DNA of 64,000 nt from Escherichia coli. Its GTDB lineage: Bacteria > Pseudomonadota > Gammaproteobacteria > Enterobacterales > Enterobacteriaceae. The notes under the pieces are model-generated. The model saw only the letters and a list, made by a program, of their open reading frames with translations. It searched no databases and was not told where the DNA came from. The stretch lies in NCBI RefSeq assembly GCF_013315695.1, contig NZ_CP054353.1, one strand, 5' to 3'. Positions 24,206 through 50,245 of this stretch are shown here, piece by piece; position 1 is the first letter of the stretch, and each line of letters opens with the position of its first letter. The translations under genes and the position numbers were made by a program.

Positions 24206-24298
24206 GGTGAGGTGGCCGAGAGGCTGAAGGCGCTCCCCTGCTAAGGGAGTATGCGGTCAAAAGCTGCATCCGGGGTTCGAATCCCCGCCTCACCGCCA
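24206..24298 (+). tRNA. serV: tRNA-Ser (anticodon GCU), long variable arm
   Basis: 93-nt sequence GGTGAGGTGGCCGAG...GGTTCGAATCCCCGCCTCACCGCCA with anticodon loop CUGCUAA. Confidence 0.95.
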
Positions 24299-24301
24299 TT
24301 T

Positions 24302-24378
24302 GCATCCGTAGCTCAGCTGGATAGAGTACTCGGCTACGAACCGAGCGGTCGGAGGTTCGAATCCTCCCGGATGCACCA
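24302..24378 (+). tRNA. argV: tRNA-Arg (anticodon ACG)
   Basis: 77-nt GCATCCGTAGCTCAG...GGTTCGAATCCTCCCGGATGCACCA with anticodon ACG. Confidence 0.95.
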
Positions 24379-24440
24379 TCTCTTACTTGATATGGCTTTA
24401 GTAGCGGTATCAATATCAGCAGTAAAATAAATTTCCCGAT

Positions 24441-24517
24441 GCATCCGTAGCTCAGCTGGATAGAGTACTCGGCTACGAACCGAGCGGTCGGAGGTTCGAA
24501 TCCTCCCGGATGCACCA
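24441..24517 (+). tRNA. argY: tRNA-Arg (anticodon ACG), identical copy
   Basis: Identical 77-nt tRNA preceded by an identical 62-bp spacer. Confidence 0.95.
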
Positions 24518-24579
24518 TCTCTTACTTGATATGGCTTTAGTAGCGGTATCAATATCAGCAGTAAAATAAATTTCCCGAT

Positions 24580-24656
24580 GCATCCGTAGCTCAGCTGGAT
24601 AGAGTACTCGGCTACGAACCGAGCGGTCGGAGGTTCGAATCCTCCCGGATGCACCA
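24580..24656 (+). tRNA. argZ: tRNA-Arg (anticodon ACG), identical copy
   Basis: Identical 77-nt tRNA preceded by an identical 62-bp spacer. Confidence 0.95.
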
Positions 24657-24718
24657 TCTCTTACTTGATATGGCTTTAGTAGCGGTATCAATATCAGCAG
24701 TAAAATAAATTTCCCGAT

Positions 24719-24795
24719 GCATCCGTAGCTCAGCTGGATAGAGTACTCGGCTACGAACCGAGCGGTCGGAGGTTCGAATCCTCCCGGATGCACCA
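24719..24795 (+). tRNA. argQ: tRNA-Arg (anticodon ACG), identical copy
   Basis: Identical 77-nt tRNA preceded by an identical 62-bp spacer. Confidence 0.95.
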
Positions 24796-27682: not shown

Positions 27683-27755
27683 AAAAAGGCCACTCGTGAG
27701 TGGCCAAAATTTCATCTCTGAATTCAGGGATGATGATAACAAATGCGCGTCTTTC
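27683..27755 (-). ncRNA. micA: MicA (SraD) small RNA, Hfq-dependent repressor of ompA and other envelope mRNAs
   Basis: Reverse complement reads GAAAGACGCGCATTTGTTATCATCATCCCTGAATTCAGAGATGAAATTTTGGCCACTCACGAGTGGCCTTTTT, terminator hairpin included; sits in the gshA-luxS gap. Confidence 0.9.
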
Positions 27756-46924: not shown

Positions 46925-47224
46925 TTACGGACAATAGACATTTTTCAGGGTGGCGATAATGGCATTTACCGCCTCATTTTTAATGGAATATAGAATGCGT
47001 TGGGCATCCCGTTGGCTGTCGATAAGCCCTTCGTCCCGCATACGAGCGAGATGCTGTGATGTCGCAGAGGCACTCAGTCCGGTAATGCGAGTCAGCTCTC
47101 CCGCGCTGGTGCCGGGGGAACCGCTAAGCATGCACAGAATCAGCAACCGTTTAGGGTGGCTCATTGCTTTCAATAAGGCCGCTGCCTGTTCGGCACTGGC
47201 CTGTAATTGCGCGAGTTCAGTCAT
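46925..47224 (-). CDS. ygaV: ArsR/SmtB-family transcriptional repressor
   Basis: 99-aa wHTH ORF co-oriented with ygaP. Confidence 0.88.
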   Translation of the reverse strand: MTELAQLQASAEQAAALLKAMSHPKRLLILCMLSGSPGTSAGELTRITGLSASATSQHLARMRDEGLIDSQRDAQRILYSIKNEAVNAIIATLKNVYCP

Positions 47225-47406
47225 AGTTATTTAAGTATTTTCTAAATTAAGTAAACTCTAAACTAAAAATGCAACATATACCAGCCTCAGCAGCGTAAAT
47301 GAGAGTAAAAGCGTAAGCTGAAACTGGCAGGCTCCGCTAAAATTACTACGCTTAAGAGATAAAATCTCTTTTTAAACAATGAGTAATTTTCTTATAGGGA
47401 GTACAT

Positions 47407-47565
47407 ATGGGTTTCTGGAGAATCGTCATCACCATCATTCTGCCGCCGCTCGGCGTGCTGCTCGGTAAAGGGTTCGGTTGGGCGTTCATTATTAATATTC
47501 TGCTGACACTGCTTGGGTATATCCCCGGTTTGATTCACGCGTTTTGGGTGCAAACCCGCGATTAA
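47407..47565 (+). CDS. yqaE: PMP3/UPF0057-family small membrane protein (52 aa)
   Basis: ATG at 47407 with upstream GGGAG; translation MGFWRIVITIILPPLGVLLGKGFGWAFIINILLTLLGYIPGLIHAFWVQTRD; absent from the ORF track (below its length cut-off). Confidence 0.85.
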   Translation: MGFWRIVITIILPPLGVLLGKGFGWAFIINILLTLLGYIPGLIHAFWVQTRD

Positions 47566-47648
47566 ATCTGTGTTCACCCCCGCGGCGTTAACGCGCCGCG
47601 TTCCTCTGCTACACTTTCTGAGTGTTTCCGTTAACGAATGAGGTAGCT

Positions 47649-48098
47649 ATGGGTCTGTTCAATTTTGTGAAAGATGCCGGAGAAAAACTCTGGGACGCGG
47701 TTACAGGTCAGCACGATAAAGACGATCAGGCGAAGAAGGTGCAGGAGCATCTGAACAAAACCGGTATACCTGATGCCGATAAAGTGAATATTCAAATTGC
47801 CGACGGCAAAGCGACGGTCACGGGTGACGGCCTGAGTCAGGAGGCGAAGGAGAAAATCCTTGTTGCGGTGGGGAATATTTCCGGTATTGCCAGTGTCGAT
47901 GATCAGGTGAAAACGACGACACCAGCCACTGCCAGCCAGTTTTATACCGTTAAGTCTGGCGACACTCTGAGTGCCATTTCCAAACAGGTCTACGGTAACG
48001 CCAATCTGTACAATAAAATCTTCGAAGCGAATAAACCGATGTTAAAAAGCCCGGATAAAATTTACCCGGGGCAAGTGTTGCGTATTCCTGAAGAGTAG
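47649..48098 (+). CDS. kbp: Potassium-binding protein Kbp (BON + LysM domains)
   Basis: 149-aa ORF from [16 protein letters not shown]-terminal LysM ([18 protein letters not shown]). Confidence 0.9.
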
Positions 48099-48761
48099 TT
48101 AATTGCCAGCCATCGCCTGCTGGATAATGGGAATTGGCGTCAGTAAATGCTGGCGCATTAACTCACTGGCGCGCGCGGTATCTCGCGCCAGTACCGCCGC
48201 AGTCAGGGTCTGGTGCTGATCGTGTTTATCTTCCAGCATTTCCACCGAAAGCACTGTTCGCCGCAGCCAGATAAATCGATAACGCGCTGCCAGATCAAAC
48301 AACCGTTCACGCATTTGCAGCAAATAGTAAGAACCACAGCCCGCCACAATTGCAGTATGAAACGCCTGATGACGCAGATCCCACTCATCAAGCATTTTCT
48401 CACTGGCGTCACAGGCCTCAAGCTTACTGAGCAGATGCGCCTTCGCAAGAACGTCTGCCTCCCATTCATCGCCACCGCGGGCAATCGCCAGATTCACCAA
48501 CATCGCTTCCATATTGGCGCGGGCGTCGAAAATATCGAGCAGCTCTTGCTCTGACATAGACGCCACCCGATACCCTTTTTGATTCACCACCGTGACCAGT
48601 CGTTCTGCCACCAGTTGCGAAAGCGCTTCCCGCAACGGCCCAACGCCAAGTGCATAACGCGATGTCAGCAAACTCATCCGTAATTTTTCATCCGGCTGAA
48701 AATTGCCGCGAATAATATCGTTCTTCAGCCAGCGATAGCCATCCAGAGACGTAATGGTCAT
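48099..48761 (-). CDS. csiR: GntR/FadR-family repressor of the csiD-gab operon
   Basis: Start trimmed to MTITSLDGYRWLKNDII (220 aa). Confidence 0.9.
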   Translation of the reverse strand: MTITSLDGYRWLKNDIIRGNFQPDEKLRMSLLTSRYALGVGPLREALSQLVAERLVTVVNQKGYRVASMSEQELLDIFDARANMEAMLVNLAIARGGDEWEADVLAKAHLLSKLEACDASEKMLDEWDLRHQAFHTAIVAGCGSYYLLQMRERLFDLAARYRFIWLRRTVLSVEMLEDKHDQHQTLTAAVLARDTARASELMRQHLLTPIPIIQQAMAGN

Positions 48762-48781
48762 GGTGTGACTCCTGATCATTA

Positions 48782-50182
48782 TCAGCGCGTATTATGAACG
48801 GGTGTTTTTTGCCACAATACCAGCTTTTTCCAGCGAGCCATAATTGGCACGGTACAGATAATCCCTATCGCTAATAAGCCGGTGGAGATCACTTCTAACT
48901 GTTGCGCCGGGCGGAATAGCATCACTACCAACACAAAGGTAATAAAGCCGATGACCAGCCAGGTGAGCCACGGATAAAGCCACATCCGCAGGCGAATTTC
49001 GCTTCCTTCTGCTCGCAGAATTTTGCGCATCCGCAATTGTGAAACGGCGATGACTAAATAAACCAGCAGGGCGATAGCACCGGAGCTGTCGATCAGAAAT
49101 TTAAACACTTTCGCAGGCGCGTAATAATTCACCACCACCGTTAAAAATGCCGCGCCGGTGGAGAGTAATACCGCCACATACGGGGTTTTACTGCGGTTGA
49201 TTTTACCCATTACCGCGGGCGCATCACCGCGACGGCTTAAGGAGTAGAGCATTCTGGAAGCGGTATACAGCGCCGAGTTCAGGCAACTGGTTACGGAAAG
49301 TAATATCACGCAGTCCATGATTAATTTCGCATGGGGAATATTGAGCAACTCCAGAACCGAGCGATAAGATCCAACGGCTTTCAGCCCCGGCATATTCCAC
49401 GGTATTAATGCCACGACGACAAAAATAGAGCACAAATAGAAGATAGAAATACGCCAGATAACCGAGTTGGTGGCGCGGACAATATGTTTTTCCGGCGTGT
49501 CAGATTCCGCGGCGGCAATAGTGACAATTTCTGCGCCCATAAACGAGAACATGGTGATCAACATCGCGCTTAATACCGCACCGAAGCCGTTGGGCATAAA
49601 GCCGCCGCTATCCCACAATCTTGAGATCCCGCTCACTTCGGCATAAGGGTAAAAACCGCTAATTGCGACTGCACCAAGGAAAATAAAGGCCAGGATAGCG
49701 ATGACTTTACACAGCGCCAGCCAGAACTCAAATTCGCCGTAGTTTTTAACGCTTAATAAATTACTGCCGGTTAAGGCGAGGGTAATGACCAGGGAAAATA
49801 ACCAGATGGGAATGCCTGGAACCCACGAGTGCAGGATCATGGCGGCGATGTTGGCTTCAAGTGGGATAACCAGTACCCAAAACCACCAGTACAACCAGCC
49901 GATGGTATAGCCCGCCCAGCGGCCAATGGCTTTATCGGCATAGGTGGAAAAGGAGCCGGTGTCGGGCGTGGCAACCGCCATTTCTGCCAGCATTCGCATA
50001 ATCATAACCACCAGCAATCCGGCGAACAGATAGGCCAGTAACACCGCCGGACCCGCTTCGGCGATGGCGACGCTGGAACCGACAAACAGACTTGCGCCGA
50101 TAACACCGGCAATAGACAACATAGTGACGTGGCGTGACTTCAGCCCGCCGCCTAACTCATGTGGTTGCGATGATTGCCCCAT
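48782..50182 (-). CDS. gabP: Gamma-aminobutyrate permease (APC family)
   Basis: Polytopic membrane ORF; start trimmed to MGQSSQPHEL (466 aa). Confidence 0.93.
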   Translation of the reverse strand: MGQSSQPHELGGGLKSRHVTMLSIAGVIGASLFVGSSVAIAEAGPAVLLAYLFAGLLVVMIMRMLAEMAVATPDTGSFSTYADKAIGRWAGYTIGWLYWWFWVLVIPLEANIAAMILHSWVPGIPIWLFSLVITLALTGSNLLSVKNYGEFEFWLALCKVIAILAFIFLGAVAISGFYPYAEVSGISRLWDSGGFMPNGFGAVLSAMLITMFSFMGAEIVTIAAAESDTPEKHIVRATNSVIWRISIFYLCSIFVVVALIPWNMPGLKAVGSYRSVLELLNIPHAKLIMDCVILLSVTSCLNSALYTASRMLYSLSRRGDAPAVMGKINRSKTPYVAVLLSTGAAFLTVVVNYYAPAKVFKFLIDSSGAIALLVYLVIAVSQLRMRKILRAEGSEIRLRMWLYPWLTWLVIGFITFVLVVMLFRPAQQLEVISTGLLAIGIICTVPIMARWKKLVLWQKTPVHNTR

Positions 50183-50245
50183 CCTGAATCCTCTCGAAAG
50201 TGTGTCACTTGGGAGAGCGCCCCGACATTTCCCGCGTCGGGTCAC

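What the first reader, a model, noticed from the sequence alone, without database searches (positions are those of the whole stretch)
47407..47565. Small membrane protein yqaE missed by the ORF track; opposite-strand ORF is spurious
The 52-codon + strand ORF has a good RBS and encodes a two-helix PMP3-family proteolipid. The track instead lists a 61-aa minus-strand ORF (47392-47577) covering the same DNA, which is almost certainly an artefact.
Basis: partly seen in the sequence, partly recalled or inferred. Interest (0 to 1): 0.2.

Follow-up and report, generated by a model that had tools for sequence, protein, structure and literature searches.

The report
Known small membrane protein gene yqaE
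This is the already annotated E. coli gene yqaE, which encodes a 52-residue stress-induced membrane protein of the PMP3 family; a 60-codon length cut-off hid it, and the overlapping opposite-strand ORF is a by-product of it.

Summary
The observation and the interpretation both hold, but nothing here is new. The + strand ORF at 47407-47565 (52 codons, AGGGAG Shine-Dalgarno 5 nt upstream) scores 69.3 bits on Pfam PF01679 Pmp3, against a cut-off of 22.9. It is identical to E. coli YqaE (UniProt YQAE_ECOLI), and RefSeq annotates it at exactly these coordinates.

It was "missed" only because the ORF list starts at 60 aa. Across 46 Enterobacterales orthologs, variable columns by codon position are 26/6/49, and changed codons are 1131 synonymous against 253 non-synonymous.

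The 61-aa minus ORF (47392-47577) is the codon-for-codon complement of yqaE. In its frame the changes are 114 synonymous against 1283 non-synonymous. It is intact in 0 of 46 species, matches no family, and is absent from a collection of about 15 billion proteins.

Surrounding anatomy:
- a conserved CpxR box
- a conserved sigma-S-type -10
- a predicted CyaR pairing site over the ribosome-binding site
- a hairpin downstream of the stop codon

One caveat concerns "two-helix". My AlphaFold model is a plain helical hairpin, but the only solved homologue (PscF/Ric1, 7UEB/8GWA) is described as four short membrane-embedded helices.

The molecular mechanism of the family is unknown. The best reading is a stress-induced inner-membrane proteolipid that modulates membrane potential and cation homeostasis.

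The parts
47407..47565 (+). yqaE coding sequence: 52 codons plus TAA, PMP3/UPF0057 family small membrane protein
   Evidence: ORF. Pfam PF01679 69.3 bits, E 2.7e-19. RefSeq CDS at the same coordinates. Exact match to YQAE_ECOLI. Codon-position variability 26/6/49 and 1131 synonymous vs 253 non-synonymous changes in 46 species.
47396..47401 (+). Shine-Dalgarno sequence AGGGAG, 5 nt upstream of the ATG
   Evidence: Read from the sequence. A GGAG-type core sits at the same distance in all but a few of the 46 orthologs.
47394..47419 (+). Predicted pairing site for the sRNA CyaR, covering the SD, the ATG and codons 2-4
   Evidence: RNAduplex of CyaR nt 34-53 (sequence taken from MG1655) gives dG -21.1 kcal/mol, better than 97.7% of random 51-nt windows. 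Repression of yqaE by CyaR and co-purification with MS2-CyaR are published (PMC5861431, PMC7213987). The exact pairing is inferred here.
47295..47309 (+). CpxR-P binding box GTAAA-N5-GTAAA (GTAAATGAGAGTAAA)
   Evidence: The only match in the 64-kb window; 0.16 expected by chance. An exact box lies at -90 to -118 in 31 of 46 Enterobacterales and is invariant in a 14-species alignment. A CpxR activator site at the yqaE promoter is reported in PMC12133099, and yqaE is listed in the CpxR regulon in PMC7657598, PMC11575346 and PMC5105897.
47324..47329 (+). Candidate -35 element CTGGCA
   Evidence: TGGC is nearly invariant in the 14-species alignment. It lies 17 nt upstream of the candidate -10. Inferred; no TSS data were available.
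47346..47355 (+). Candidate sigma-S-type extended -10, CTACGCTTAA
   Evidence: CTA..CTT is invariant or nearly so in 14 species. It matches the sigma-S -10 consensus KCTAYRCTTAA, which I cite from my own knowledge of the Hengge-lab consensus. The Salmonella yqaE transcript is tightly sigma-S controlled (PMC5437024). No sigma-70 consensus promoter was found in 47100-48200. A less conserved alternative -10, TAAAAT at 47338-47343, is not excluded.
47355..47382 (+). Conserved A/U-rich block in the 5' UTR (AGAGATAAAATCTCTTTTTAAACAATGA)
   Evidence: High column conservation. Its AGAGAT/ATCTCT inverted repeat is not kept by compensatory change in other species, so this is sequence conservation rather than structure. 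Role unknown. Hfq-bound fragments of the yqaE RBS region are reported in PMC7145675.
47581..47600 (+). GC-rich hairpin 16 nt after the stop codon; probable weak terminator of yqaE
   Evidence: 8-bp stem, MFE -19 kcal/mol for 47560-47625, z -2.7. A hairpin of different sequence, with a better T-run, occupies the same position in Citrobacter and Salmonella. The simple terminator scan did not call it, because the following tract is TTCCTCT.
47392..47577 (-). 61-aa antisense ORF; not a gene
   Evidence: It is the codon-for-codon complement of yqaE. No Pfam or NCBIfam match. Absent from the ~15-billion-protein collection. 114 synonymous vs 1283 non-synonymous changes and 0 of 46 intact. 25 of 46 orthologs carry a TTA, CTA or TCA codon, which reads as an antisense stop.

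Best explanation
The + strand ORF is yqaE, a real and expressed gene. It encodes a 52-residue, very hydrophobic protein of the PMP3/RCI2/UPF0057 family; published work places it in the inner membrane.

Shown here: family membership, purifying selection, conserved translation signals, a conserved CpxR box and a conserved sigma-S-like -10.

From the literature:
- Transcription is activated by the Cpx envelope-stress response.
- In Salmonella the transcript is tightly sigma-S controlled.
- Translation and stability are repressed by the cAMP-CRP-dependent sRNA CyaR, with Hfq.
- An E. coli yqaE deletion mutant is sensitive to both lack and excess of NaCl, and expression of the family tends to rise as membrane potential falls (Kwok 2020, as reported in PMC7835403 and PMC9006882).

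Inferred mechanism: when the envelope is stressed or cells enter stationary phase, YqaE accumulates in the inner membrane. There its two proline/glycine-kinked hydrophobic segments sit in the bilayer and damp cation leak or membrane hyperpolarisation. It probably does this by associating with and tuning a larger membrane protein, or the lipid packing around it, rather than by forming a pore alone.

The minus-strand ORF is a passive consequence. A gene rich in NTN codons that lacks TTA, CTA and TCA codons leaves its exact complementary frame open.
For: - Identity and family.
- Family motif: invariant P13 P14 G16 V17 G22 F27 N30 L33 T34 L36 G37 Y38 P40 G41 H44 across 30 sequences from several phyla.
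- Selection: (46 species; 44 keep exactly 52 codons, and two Klebsiella read through the stop position).
- Hydrophobicity: GRAVY 1.22, two hydrophobic maxima around residues 6-15 and 27-36.
- Model: two helices, 3-21 and 25-50, pLDDT 88.7.
- Regulation: CpxR box; sigma-S-like -10; CyaR pairing.
- Literature: PMC5861431, PMC7213987, PMC7145675, PMC12133099, PMC11575346, PMC5105897, PMC5437024, PMC7835403, PMC9006882.
- Partner-subunit behaviour of PMP3 homologues: PscF/Ric1 bound to the green-sulfur reaction centre (PMC9529944), and PMPL-1 required together with PEEL-1 to make a cation channel (PMC12136403).
Against: - No biochemical mechanism is known for any PMP3 protein. The membrane-potential role rests on mutant phenotypes in yeast, plants and E. 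coli that I could read only second-hand; Kwok 2020 and Navarre & Goffeau 2000 were not held.
- A yqaE deletion had no significant effect on CFU survival after TisB expression (PMC11575346).
- Yeast PMP3 and PMPL-2 could not replace PMPL-1 (PMC12136403), so partner functions are not general to the family.
- No conserved gene partner was found: kbp is adjacent only in Escherichia, Salmonella and some Citrobacter, and is missing in E. albertii and C. youngae.
- Structure searches returned only generic helical hairpins.
- The TSS and the sigma factor are inferred from conservation, not measured.
Confidence: 0.97

Rival explanations
1. The minus-strand ORF 47392-47577 is the real gene, or a second overlapping gene, encoding a 61-aa hydrophilic protein.
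For: It is the only ORF of at least 60 aa over this DNA, and it is open in this allele and in E. albertii apart from the start codon.
Against: - Its frame shows 114 synonymous vs 1283 non-synonymous codon changes.
- The GTG start is not kept even in another E. coli (GTA in L003).
- 0 of 46 species keep it intact, and 25 of 46 have an internal stop.
- It has no family match and is not in the ~15-billion-protein collection.
- Its Q/N/D/E/H/K-rich composition (GRAVY -1.43) is what the complement of NTN codons gives.
Confidence: 0.01
2. YqaE is not a two-pass transmembrane hairpin. Instead it is a monotopic or re-entrant protein of four short helices lying in one leaflet, like the solved PMP3 homologue PscF/Ric1. 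On this reading it acts by altering leaflet packing or by docking on a partner, not by spanning the membrane.
For: - YqaE aligns over residues 3-47 with PscF/Ric1 of 7UEB/8GWA. That subunit is described as four membrane helices fully embedded in the bilayer (PMC9529944) and read as monotopic (PMC12136403).
- Invariant helix breakers sit in the middle of each hydrophobic segment: P13-P14-x-G16, and G37-Y-x-P40-G41.
- The first hydrophobic segment is only about 17-19 residues.
- Under this topology all three basic residues (R5, K21, R51) would face the cytoplasm (inference).
Against: - My AlphaFold model gives two continuous helices, 3-21 and 25-50, with pLDDT 88.7.
- DeepTMHMM-type predictors give two passes for the family (PMC12136403).
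- The sequence match to PscF is weak (E 1.3e-3).
Confidence: 0.35
3. yqaE and the downstream K+-binding protein gene kbp form one functional operon, so that YqaE is the membrane partner of Kbp in potassium sensing.
For: - The two genes share an orientation and lie 83 nt apart.
- Both yqaE and ygaU (kbp) are listed in the RegulonDB CpxR regulon (PMC7657598).
- The hairpin between them lacks a good T-run in E. coli, so read-through is plausible.
- YqaE expression responds to KCl (Kwok 2020, via PMC7835403).
Against: - kbp follows yqaE in only 8 of 46 Enterobacterales loci and lies about 1.5 kb downstream in two more.
- It is missing between yqaE and csiR in E. albertii, C. youngae and Citrobacter R56.
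- A hairpin is kept between the genes, and kbp has its own invariant sigma-S-type -10 block, CTCTGCTACACTT.
- No non-enteric yqaE locus has a kbp homologue nearby.
Confidence: 0.1

Closest known systems
E. coli K-12 YqaE (b2666, UniProt YQAE_ECOLI, PMP3 family protein YqaE)
   Same: The amino-acid sequence is identical over all 52 residues. The gene neighbourhood is the same: stpA, ygaP, ygaV, yqaE, kbp, csiR, gabP.
   Different: Nothing. This is that gene, in a strain whose DNA is 100% identical to E. coli MSB1_4I over the 1301 bases compared.
Yeast Pmp3p/Sna1 and plant RCI2/Lti6 proteins (Pfam PF01679)
   Same: Similar size and the same two hydrophobic segments. The profile matches over positions 2-47 of 49. 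Stress induction and salt-related mutant phenotypes are reported for the family (PMC7835403, PMC12136403).
   Different: The E. coli mutant is reported as sensitive to both lack and excess of NaCl, and yqaE expression falls in 200 mM KCl whereas yeast PMP3 rises (PMC7835403). Regulation here is bacterial: CpxR, sigma-S and CyaR.
PscF / Ric1 of the Chlorobaculum tepidum reaction centre-FMO supercomplex (PDB 7UEB chain F, 8GWA)
   Same: It is the only solved homologue. It aligns with YqaE residues 3-47 and shares the ILPP..V and LTL.G.IPG motifs.
   Different: The match is weak (E 1.3e-3, 22 bits). PscF is a peripheral subunit of a photosynthetic complex that E. coli lacks. It is described as four short membrane helices (PMC9529944), whereas my model of YqaE has two long ones.
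C. elegans PMPL-1 (PMP3-like), partner of the toxin PEEL-1
   Same: Same family. It shows that a PMP3 protein can be an obligatory part of a cation-conducting assembly (PMC12136403).
   Different: The activity is specific to PMPL-1: yeast PMP3 and PMPL-2 do not substitute (PMC12136403). No PEEL-1-like partner is known or seen next to yqaE.

Membership tests
PMP3 / UPF0057 (Pfam PF01679) | Score on the family profile above the curated gathering threshold, over nearly the whole profile | tested here: met
   69.3 bits vs 22.9, E 2.7e-19; residues 3-48 on profile positions 2-47 of 49.
PMP3 / UPF0057 (Pfam PF01679) | About 50-60 residues, very hydrophobic, with two hydrophobic segments joined by a short loop | tested here: met
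   52 aa, GRAVY 1.22, hydropathy maxima at residues 6-15 and 27-36 with a minimum at 21-24. AlphaFold helices 3-21 and 25-50.
PMP3 / UPF0057 (Pfam PF01679) | Conserved motifs: PP-x-G-V in segment 1, and N...LT-x-LGY-x-PG-x-x-HA in segment 2 | tested here: met
   Invariant P13 P14 G16 V17 G22 F27 N30 L33 T34 L36 G37 Y38 P40 G41 H44 in 30 sequences from Proteobacteria, Cyanobacteria, Nitrospirae, Actinobacteria and others. The same motifs align with PscF/Ric1.
PMP3 / UPF0057 (Pfam PF01679) | Membrane localisation and an effect on membrane potential or salt tolerance | not testable with these tools
   Literature only. The yqaE deletion mutant is reported as NaCl-sensitive (Kwok 2020, quoted in PMC7835403), and YqaE is called an inner-membrane protein in PMC11575346. 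The primary papers were not held.
Cpx regulon | CpxR-P box GTAAA-N5-GTAAA upstream of the promoter | tested here: met
   Exact box at 47295-47309, the only one in 64 kb. Exact in 31 of 46 species at a similar distance. Published activator site (PMC12133099).
CyaR sRNA targets | Base-pairing of the CyaR single-stranded region with the translation-initiation region | tested here: inconclusive
   Restricted RNAduplex gave -21.1 kcal/mol over 47394-47419, in the best 2.3% of random windows. The unrestricted calculation did not discriminate. The regulation itself is published (PMC5861431, PMC7213987).
Real protein-coding gene (applied to the minus ORF 47392-47577) | Open frame, start codon and synonymous bias conserved across species | tested here: not met
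   0 of 46 intact; 114 synonymous vs 1283 non-synonymous changes; antisense stops in 25 of 46.

The most novel reading that the evidence does not exclude
YqaE may adopt the one-leaflet, four-short-helix architecture seen for PscF/Ric1 rather than a two-pass hairpin. It may also work as a Cpx/sigma-S-induced accessory subunit that tunes a cation-conducting inner-membrane partner, by analogy with PMPL-1 and PEEL-1. That would give the PMP3 family a concrete mechanism in a tractable organism. Nothing in the sequence excludes this. My AlphaFold model does not support the four-helix part.
Probability: 0.2. Interest if true: 0.4.

Novelty: already known. Interest (0 to 1): 0.05.

Why it matters
For the scan, this is a calibration point. 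A fixed 60-aa ORF filter drops real small proteins, and it can show in their place the complementary-frame ORF of a hydrophobic gene. A cheap rule follows: when an ORF is rich in NAN codons (Q, N, D, E, H, K, Y), check the opposite strand for a membrane protein.

Biologically the locus is ordinary. yqaE is annotated in essentially every E. coli genome, and its regulation by CpxR, CyaR and sigma-S is published. The open question is how PMP3 proteins act at the molecular level and what their true topology is. That question belongs to the family, not to this window.

Tried and rejected
- Unrestricted RNAduplex of full-length CyaR against 47340-47440 gave -29.3 kcal/mol, equal to the median of random windows. 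It was uninformative, so I replaced it with a calculation restricted to the CyaR single-stranded region.
- NCBIfam has no model that reaches threshold for this protein; the only hit was a spurious 12.5-bit match to MscL. A similar sub-threshold MscL similarity over the IIxPPLG motif appears in the PDB search (E 0.6-1). I treat it as a compositional or motif coincidence.
- The synteny test for a yqaE-kbp functional pair was negative outside Escherichia, Salmonella and Citrobacter.
- The simple sigma-70 promoter scan found nothing in 47100-48200, and its two terminator-like hits lie inside coding regions. The promoter and terminator proposals therefore rest on phylogenetic footprints.
- The 5' UTR inverted repeat AGAGAT/ATCTCT (47355-47369) is not supported by compensatory changes, so I rejected it as a conserved structure.
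- The primary papers Kwok 2020 and Navarre & Goffeau 2000 were not available.

Full report
**What is there.** The + strand carries an ORF from ATG 47407 to TAA 47563-47565. It encodes MGFWRIVITIILPPLGVLLGKGFGWAFIINILLTLLGYIPGLIHAFWVQTRD, 52 aa. AGGGAG at 47396-47401 lies 5 nt before the ATG. No other ATG, GTG or TTG lies upstream in frame after the preceding stop codon, since the ORF lister starts at the first such codon.

With the default threshold of 60 aa, the ORF list for this stretch shows only the minus-strand ORF 47392-47577 (61 aa, GTG).

**Identity.** The protein scores 69.3 bits (E 2.7e-19) on Pfam PF01679 Pmp3, whose gathering score is 22.9, and it covers profile positions 2-47 of 49. 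A 1301-base stretch around it is 100% identical to E. coli strain MSB1_4I, and 5413 of 5426 complete E. coli genomes hold at least 80% of that stretch. In MSB1_4I, RefSeq annotates yqaE (YqaE/Pmp3 family membrane protein) at exactly the positions corresponding to 47407-47565. Its neighbours are stpA, ygaP and ygaV upstream and kbp, csiR and gabP downstream. The exact sequence is in the protein collection as YQAE_ECOLI, "PMP3 family protein YqaE", seen on at least 1000 contigs. This is a known, annotated gene.

**Which strand codes.** A scan of one genome per species returned 442 relatives, and I used 46 Enterobacterales orthologs.
- All 46 start with ATG at the same position. 44 have exactly 52 codons; two Klebsiella read through the stop position.
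- Variable alignment columns by + frame codon position are 26, 6 and 49 of 52 each.
- Relative to the window, changed codons are 1131 synonymous and 253 non-synonymous.
- Read in the frame of the minus ORF, the same DNA gives 114 synonymous and 1283 non-synonymous changes.
- The GTG start of the minus ORF is absent even in another E. coli (GTA in L003), and none of the 46 species keeps an intact equivalent.

The minus ORF has no Pfam or NCBIfam match and is not among about 15 billion proteins.

Its existence has a simple cause. It is the codon-for-codon complement of yqaE, since (47575-47407) mod 3 = 0. Half of the yqaE codons are NTN, and these read as NAN on the other strand. That explains the Q/N/D/E/H/K-rich sequence, with GRAVY -1.43 against +1.22 for YqaE. 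In that frame, stops can arise only from TTA, CTA or TCA codons. This allele has none, while 25 of 46 orthologs have at least one. The minus ORF is an artefact.

**Protein anatomy.** Hydropathy shows two hydrophobic maxima, at residues 6-15 and 27-36, separated by G20-K-G-F-G24. In 30 homologues from several phyla, the invariant residues are P13 P14 G16 V17 G22 F27 N30 L33 T34 L36 G37 Y38 P40 G41 H44.

By sequence, the only solved relative is PscF, annotated Ric1, of the Chlorobaculum tepidum reaction-centre supercomplex (7UEB chain F, 8GWA; E 1.3e-3, residues 3-47). Its authors describe it as four membrane helices fully embedded in the bilayer, bound at the periphery of the complex next to a lipid and a bacteriochlorophyll (PMC9529944). 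A later study reads this as a monotopic, one-leaflet fold and prefers it for the PMP3 family (PMC12136403).

The invariant prolines and glycines in the middle of each hydrophobic segment fit either picture. The "two-helix" description is therefore the classical model, supported by my prediction but not settled.

**Regulatory surroundings.**
- CpxR box. A perfect GTAAA-N5-GTAAA box lies at 47295-47309. It is the only one in the window, with 0.16 expected by chance. It is exact in 31 of 46 species at -90 to -118 from the ATG.
- Promoter footprints. A 14-species alignment of the upstream region shows the box as invariant, followed by two further footprints: CTGGCA (47324-47329) and CTACGCTTAA (47346-47355), 17 nt apart. 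The second matches the sigma-S extended -10 consensus as I know it (KCTAYRCTTAA; my own knowledge, not a tool result). The sigma-70 consensus scan found no promoter here.
- Agreement with published work. There is a CpxR activator site at the yqaE promoter (PMC12133099). yqaE is induced with cpxP and spy by a LolCDE inhibitor and by the toxin TisB (PMC5105897, PMC11575346). [quoted passage not shown]
- CyaR. This sRNA represses yqaE (PMC5861431, PMC7213987), and Hfq-bound fragments of the yqaE RBS region accumulate without PNPase (PMC7145675). Using the MG1655 CyaR sequence, CyaR nt 34-53 are predicted to pair with 47394-47419, covering the Shine-Dalgarno sequence and the start codon. The energy is -21.1 kcal/mol, better than 97.7% of random windows. 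An unrestricted calculation was uninformative.
- Terminator. Sixteen nucleotides after the stop codon there is a GC hairpin at 47581-47600. A hairpin of different sequence is kept at the same place in Citrobacter and Salmonella, there with a proper T-run. This looks like the yqaE terminator, weak in E. coli.

**Neighbour kbp.** The spacer also contains an invariant block, CTCTGCTACACTT (47604-47616), in all nine Escherichia, Citrobacter and Salmonella sequences. It is a sigma-S-type -10 placed for kbp, whose ATG is at 47649.

kbp lies immediately after yqaE in only 8 of 46 Enterobacterales loci and about 1.5 kb downstream in two more. It is absent between yqaE and csiR in E. albertii, C. youngae and Citrobacter R56, and it is never near the non-enteric homologues. 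The two genes are therefore not an obligate pair, although RegulonDB lists both under CpxR (PMC7657598) and read-through in E. coli is plausible.

**How it most likely works.** The following are shown: family membership, selection, the translation signals and the conserved regulatory motifs. The following come from the literature:
- Cpx, sigma-S and CyaR control.
- Salt-related phenotypes of the E. coli mutant (Kwok 2020, as reported in PMC7835403).
- A tendency of the family to be expressed as membrane potential falls (PMC9006882).

The rest is inferred. Under envelope stress or in stationary phase, YqaE accumulates in the inner membrane and limits cation leak or hyperpolarisation. It most likely does so by docking on a larger membrane protein or its annular lipids. 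PscF in the reaction centre and PMPL-1 with PEEL-1 (PMC9529944, PMC12136403) are examples of such partner roles.

No biochemical mechanism is known for any member. A yqaE deletion had no significant effect on CFU survival after TisB expression (PMC11575346).

**Verdict.** The feature is an already known gene, and the interest of the finding is low. The only open points concern the family as a whole: its topology and its molecular mechanism.

Noticed in passing
window 47604-47616 (+): The block CTCTGCTACACTT is invariant in all nine Escherichia, Citrobacter and Salmonella yqaE-kbp spacers. It looks like a sigma-S-type -10 (TG-C-TACACT) giving kbp its own promoter about 30 nt upstream of its ATG at 47649.
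   Followed up: partly
window 47581-47600 (+): A GC hairpin lies after the yqaE stop codon. A hairpin is kept at the same place in other genera with different sequence and a better T-run. In E. coli the tail is TTCCTCT, so termination is probably leaky and kbp may be partly co-transcribed.
   Followed up: partly
L002, L005, L042 (about +170 to +900 from the yqaE start): kbp is absent between yqaE and csiR in Escherichia albertii, Citrobacter youngae and Citrobacter sp. R56, although E. coli, Salmonella and other Citrobacter have it. This points to gain or loss of a single gene at this junction.
   Followed up: partly
window 47622-48098 (+), 48099-48779 (-), 48782-50245 (-): The longest-ORF starts in the ORF list overshoot the RefSeq starts. 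kbp: GTG 47622 vs annotated ATG 47649, which has a GAGG Shine-Dalgarno sequence. csiR: 226 vs 220 aa. gabP: 487 vs 466 aa.
   Followed up: no
window 47355-47382 (+): A strongly conserved A/U-rich block lies in the yqaE 5' UTR and has no assigned role. It may be an Hfq or sRNA contact, given the Hfq-bound yqaE RBS fragments reported in PMC7145675.
   Followed up: no
window 27684-27755 (-), 24206-24792 (+), 58596-58668 (+): Rfam finds the sRNA MicA, a cluster of five tRNA genes and a single tRNA. Together with the gene order, this places the window in the gab-stpA-micA-tRNA region of the E. coli chromosome.
   Followed up: no
YqaE residues 6-46: There is a sub-threshold similarity to the first transmembrane helix region of MscL, sharing an IIxPPLG motif (NCBIfam 12.5 bits; PDB E 0.6-1). 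It is probably a coincidence of motif and composition.
   Followed up: no
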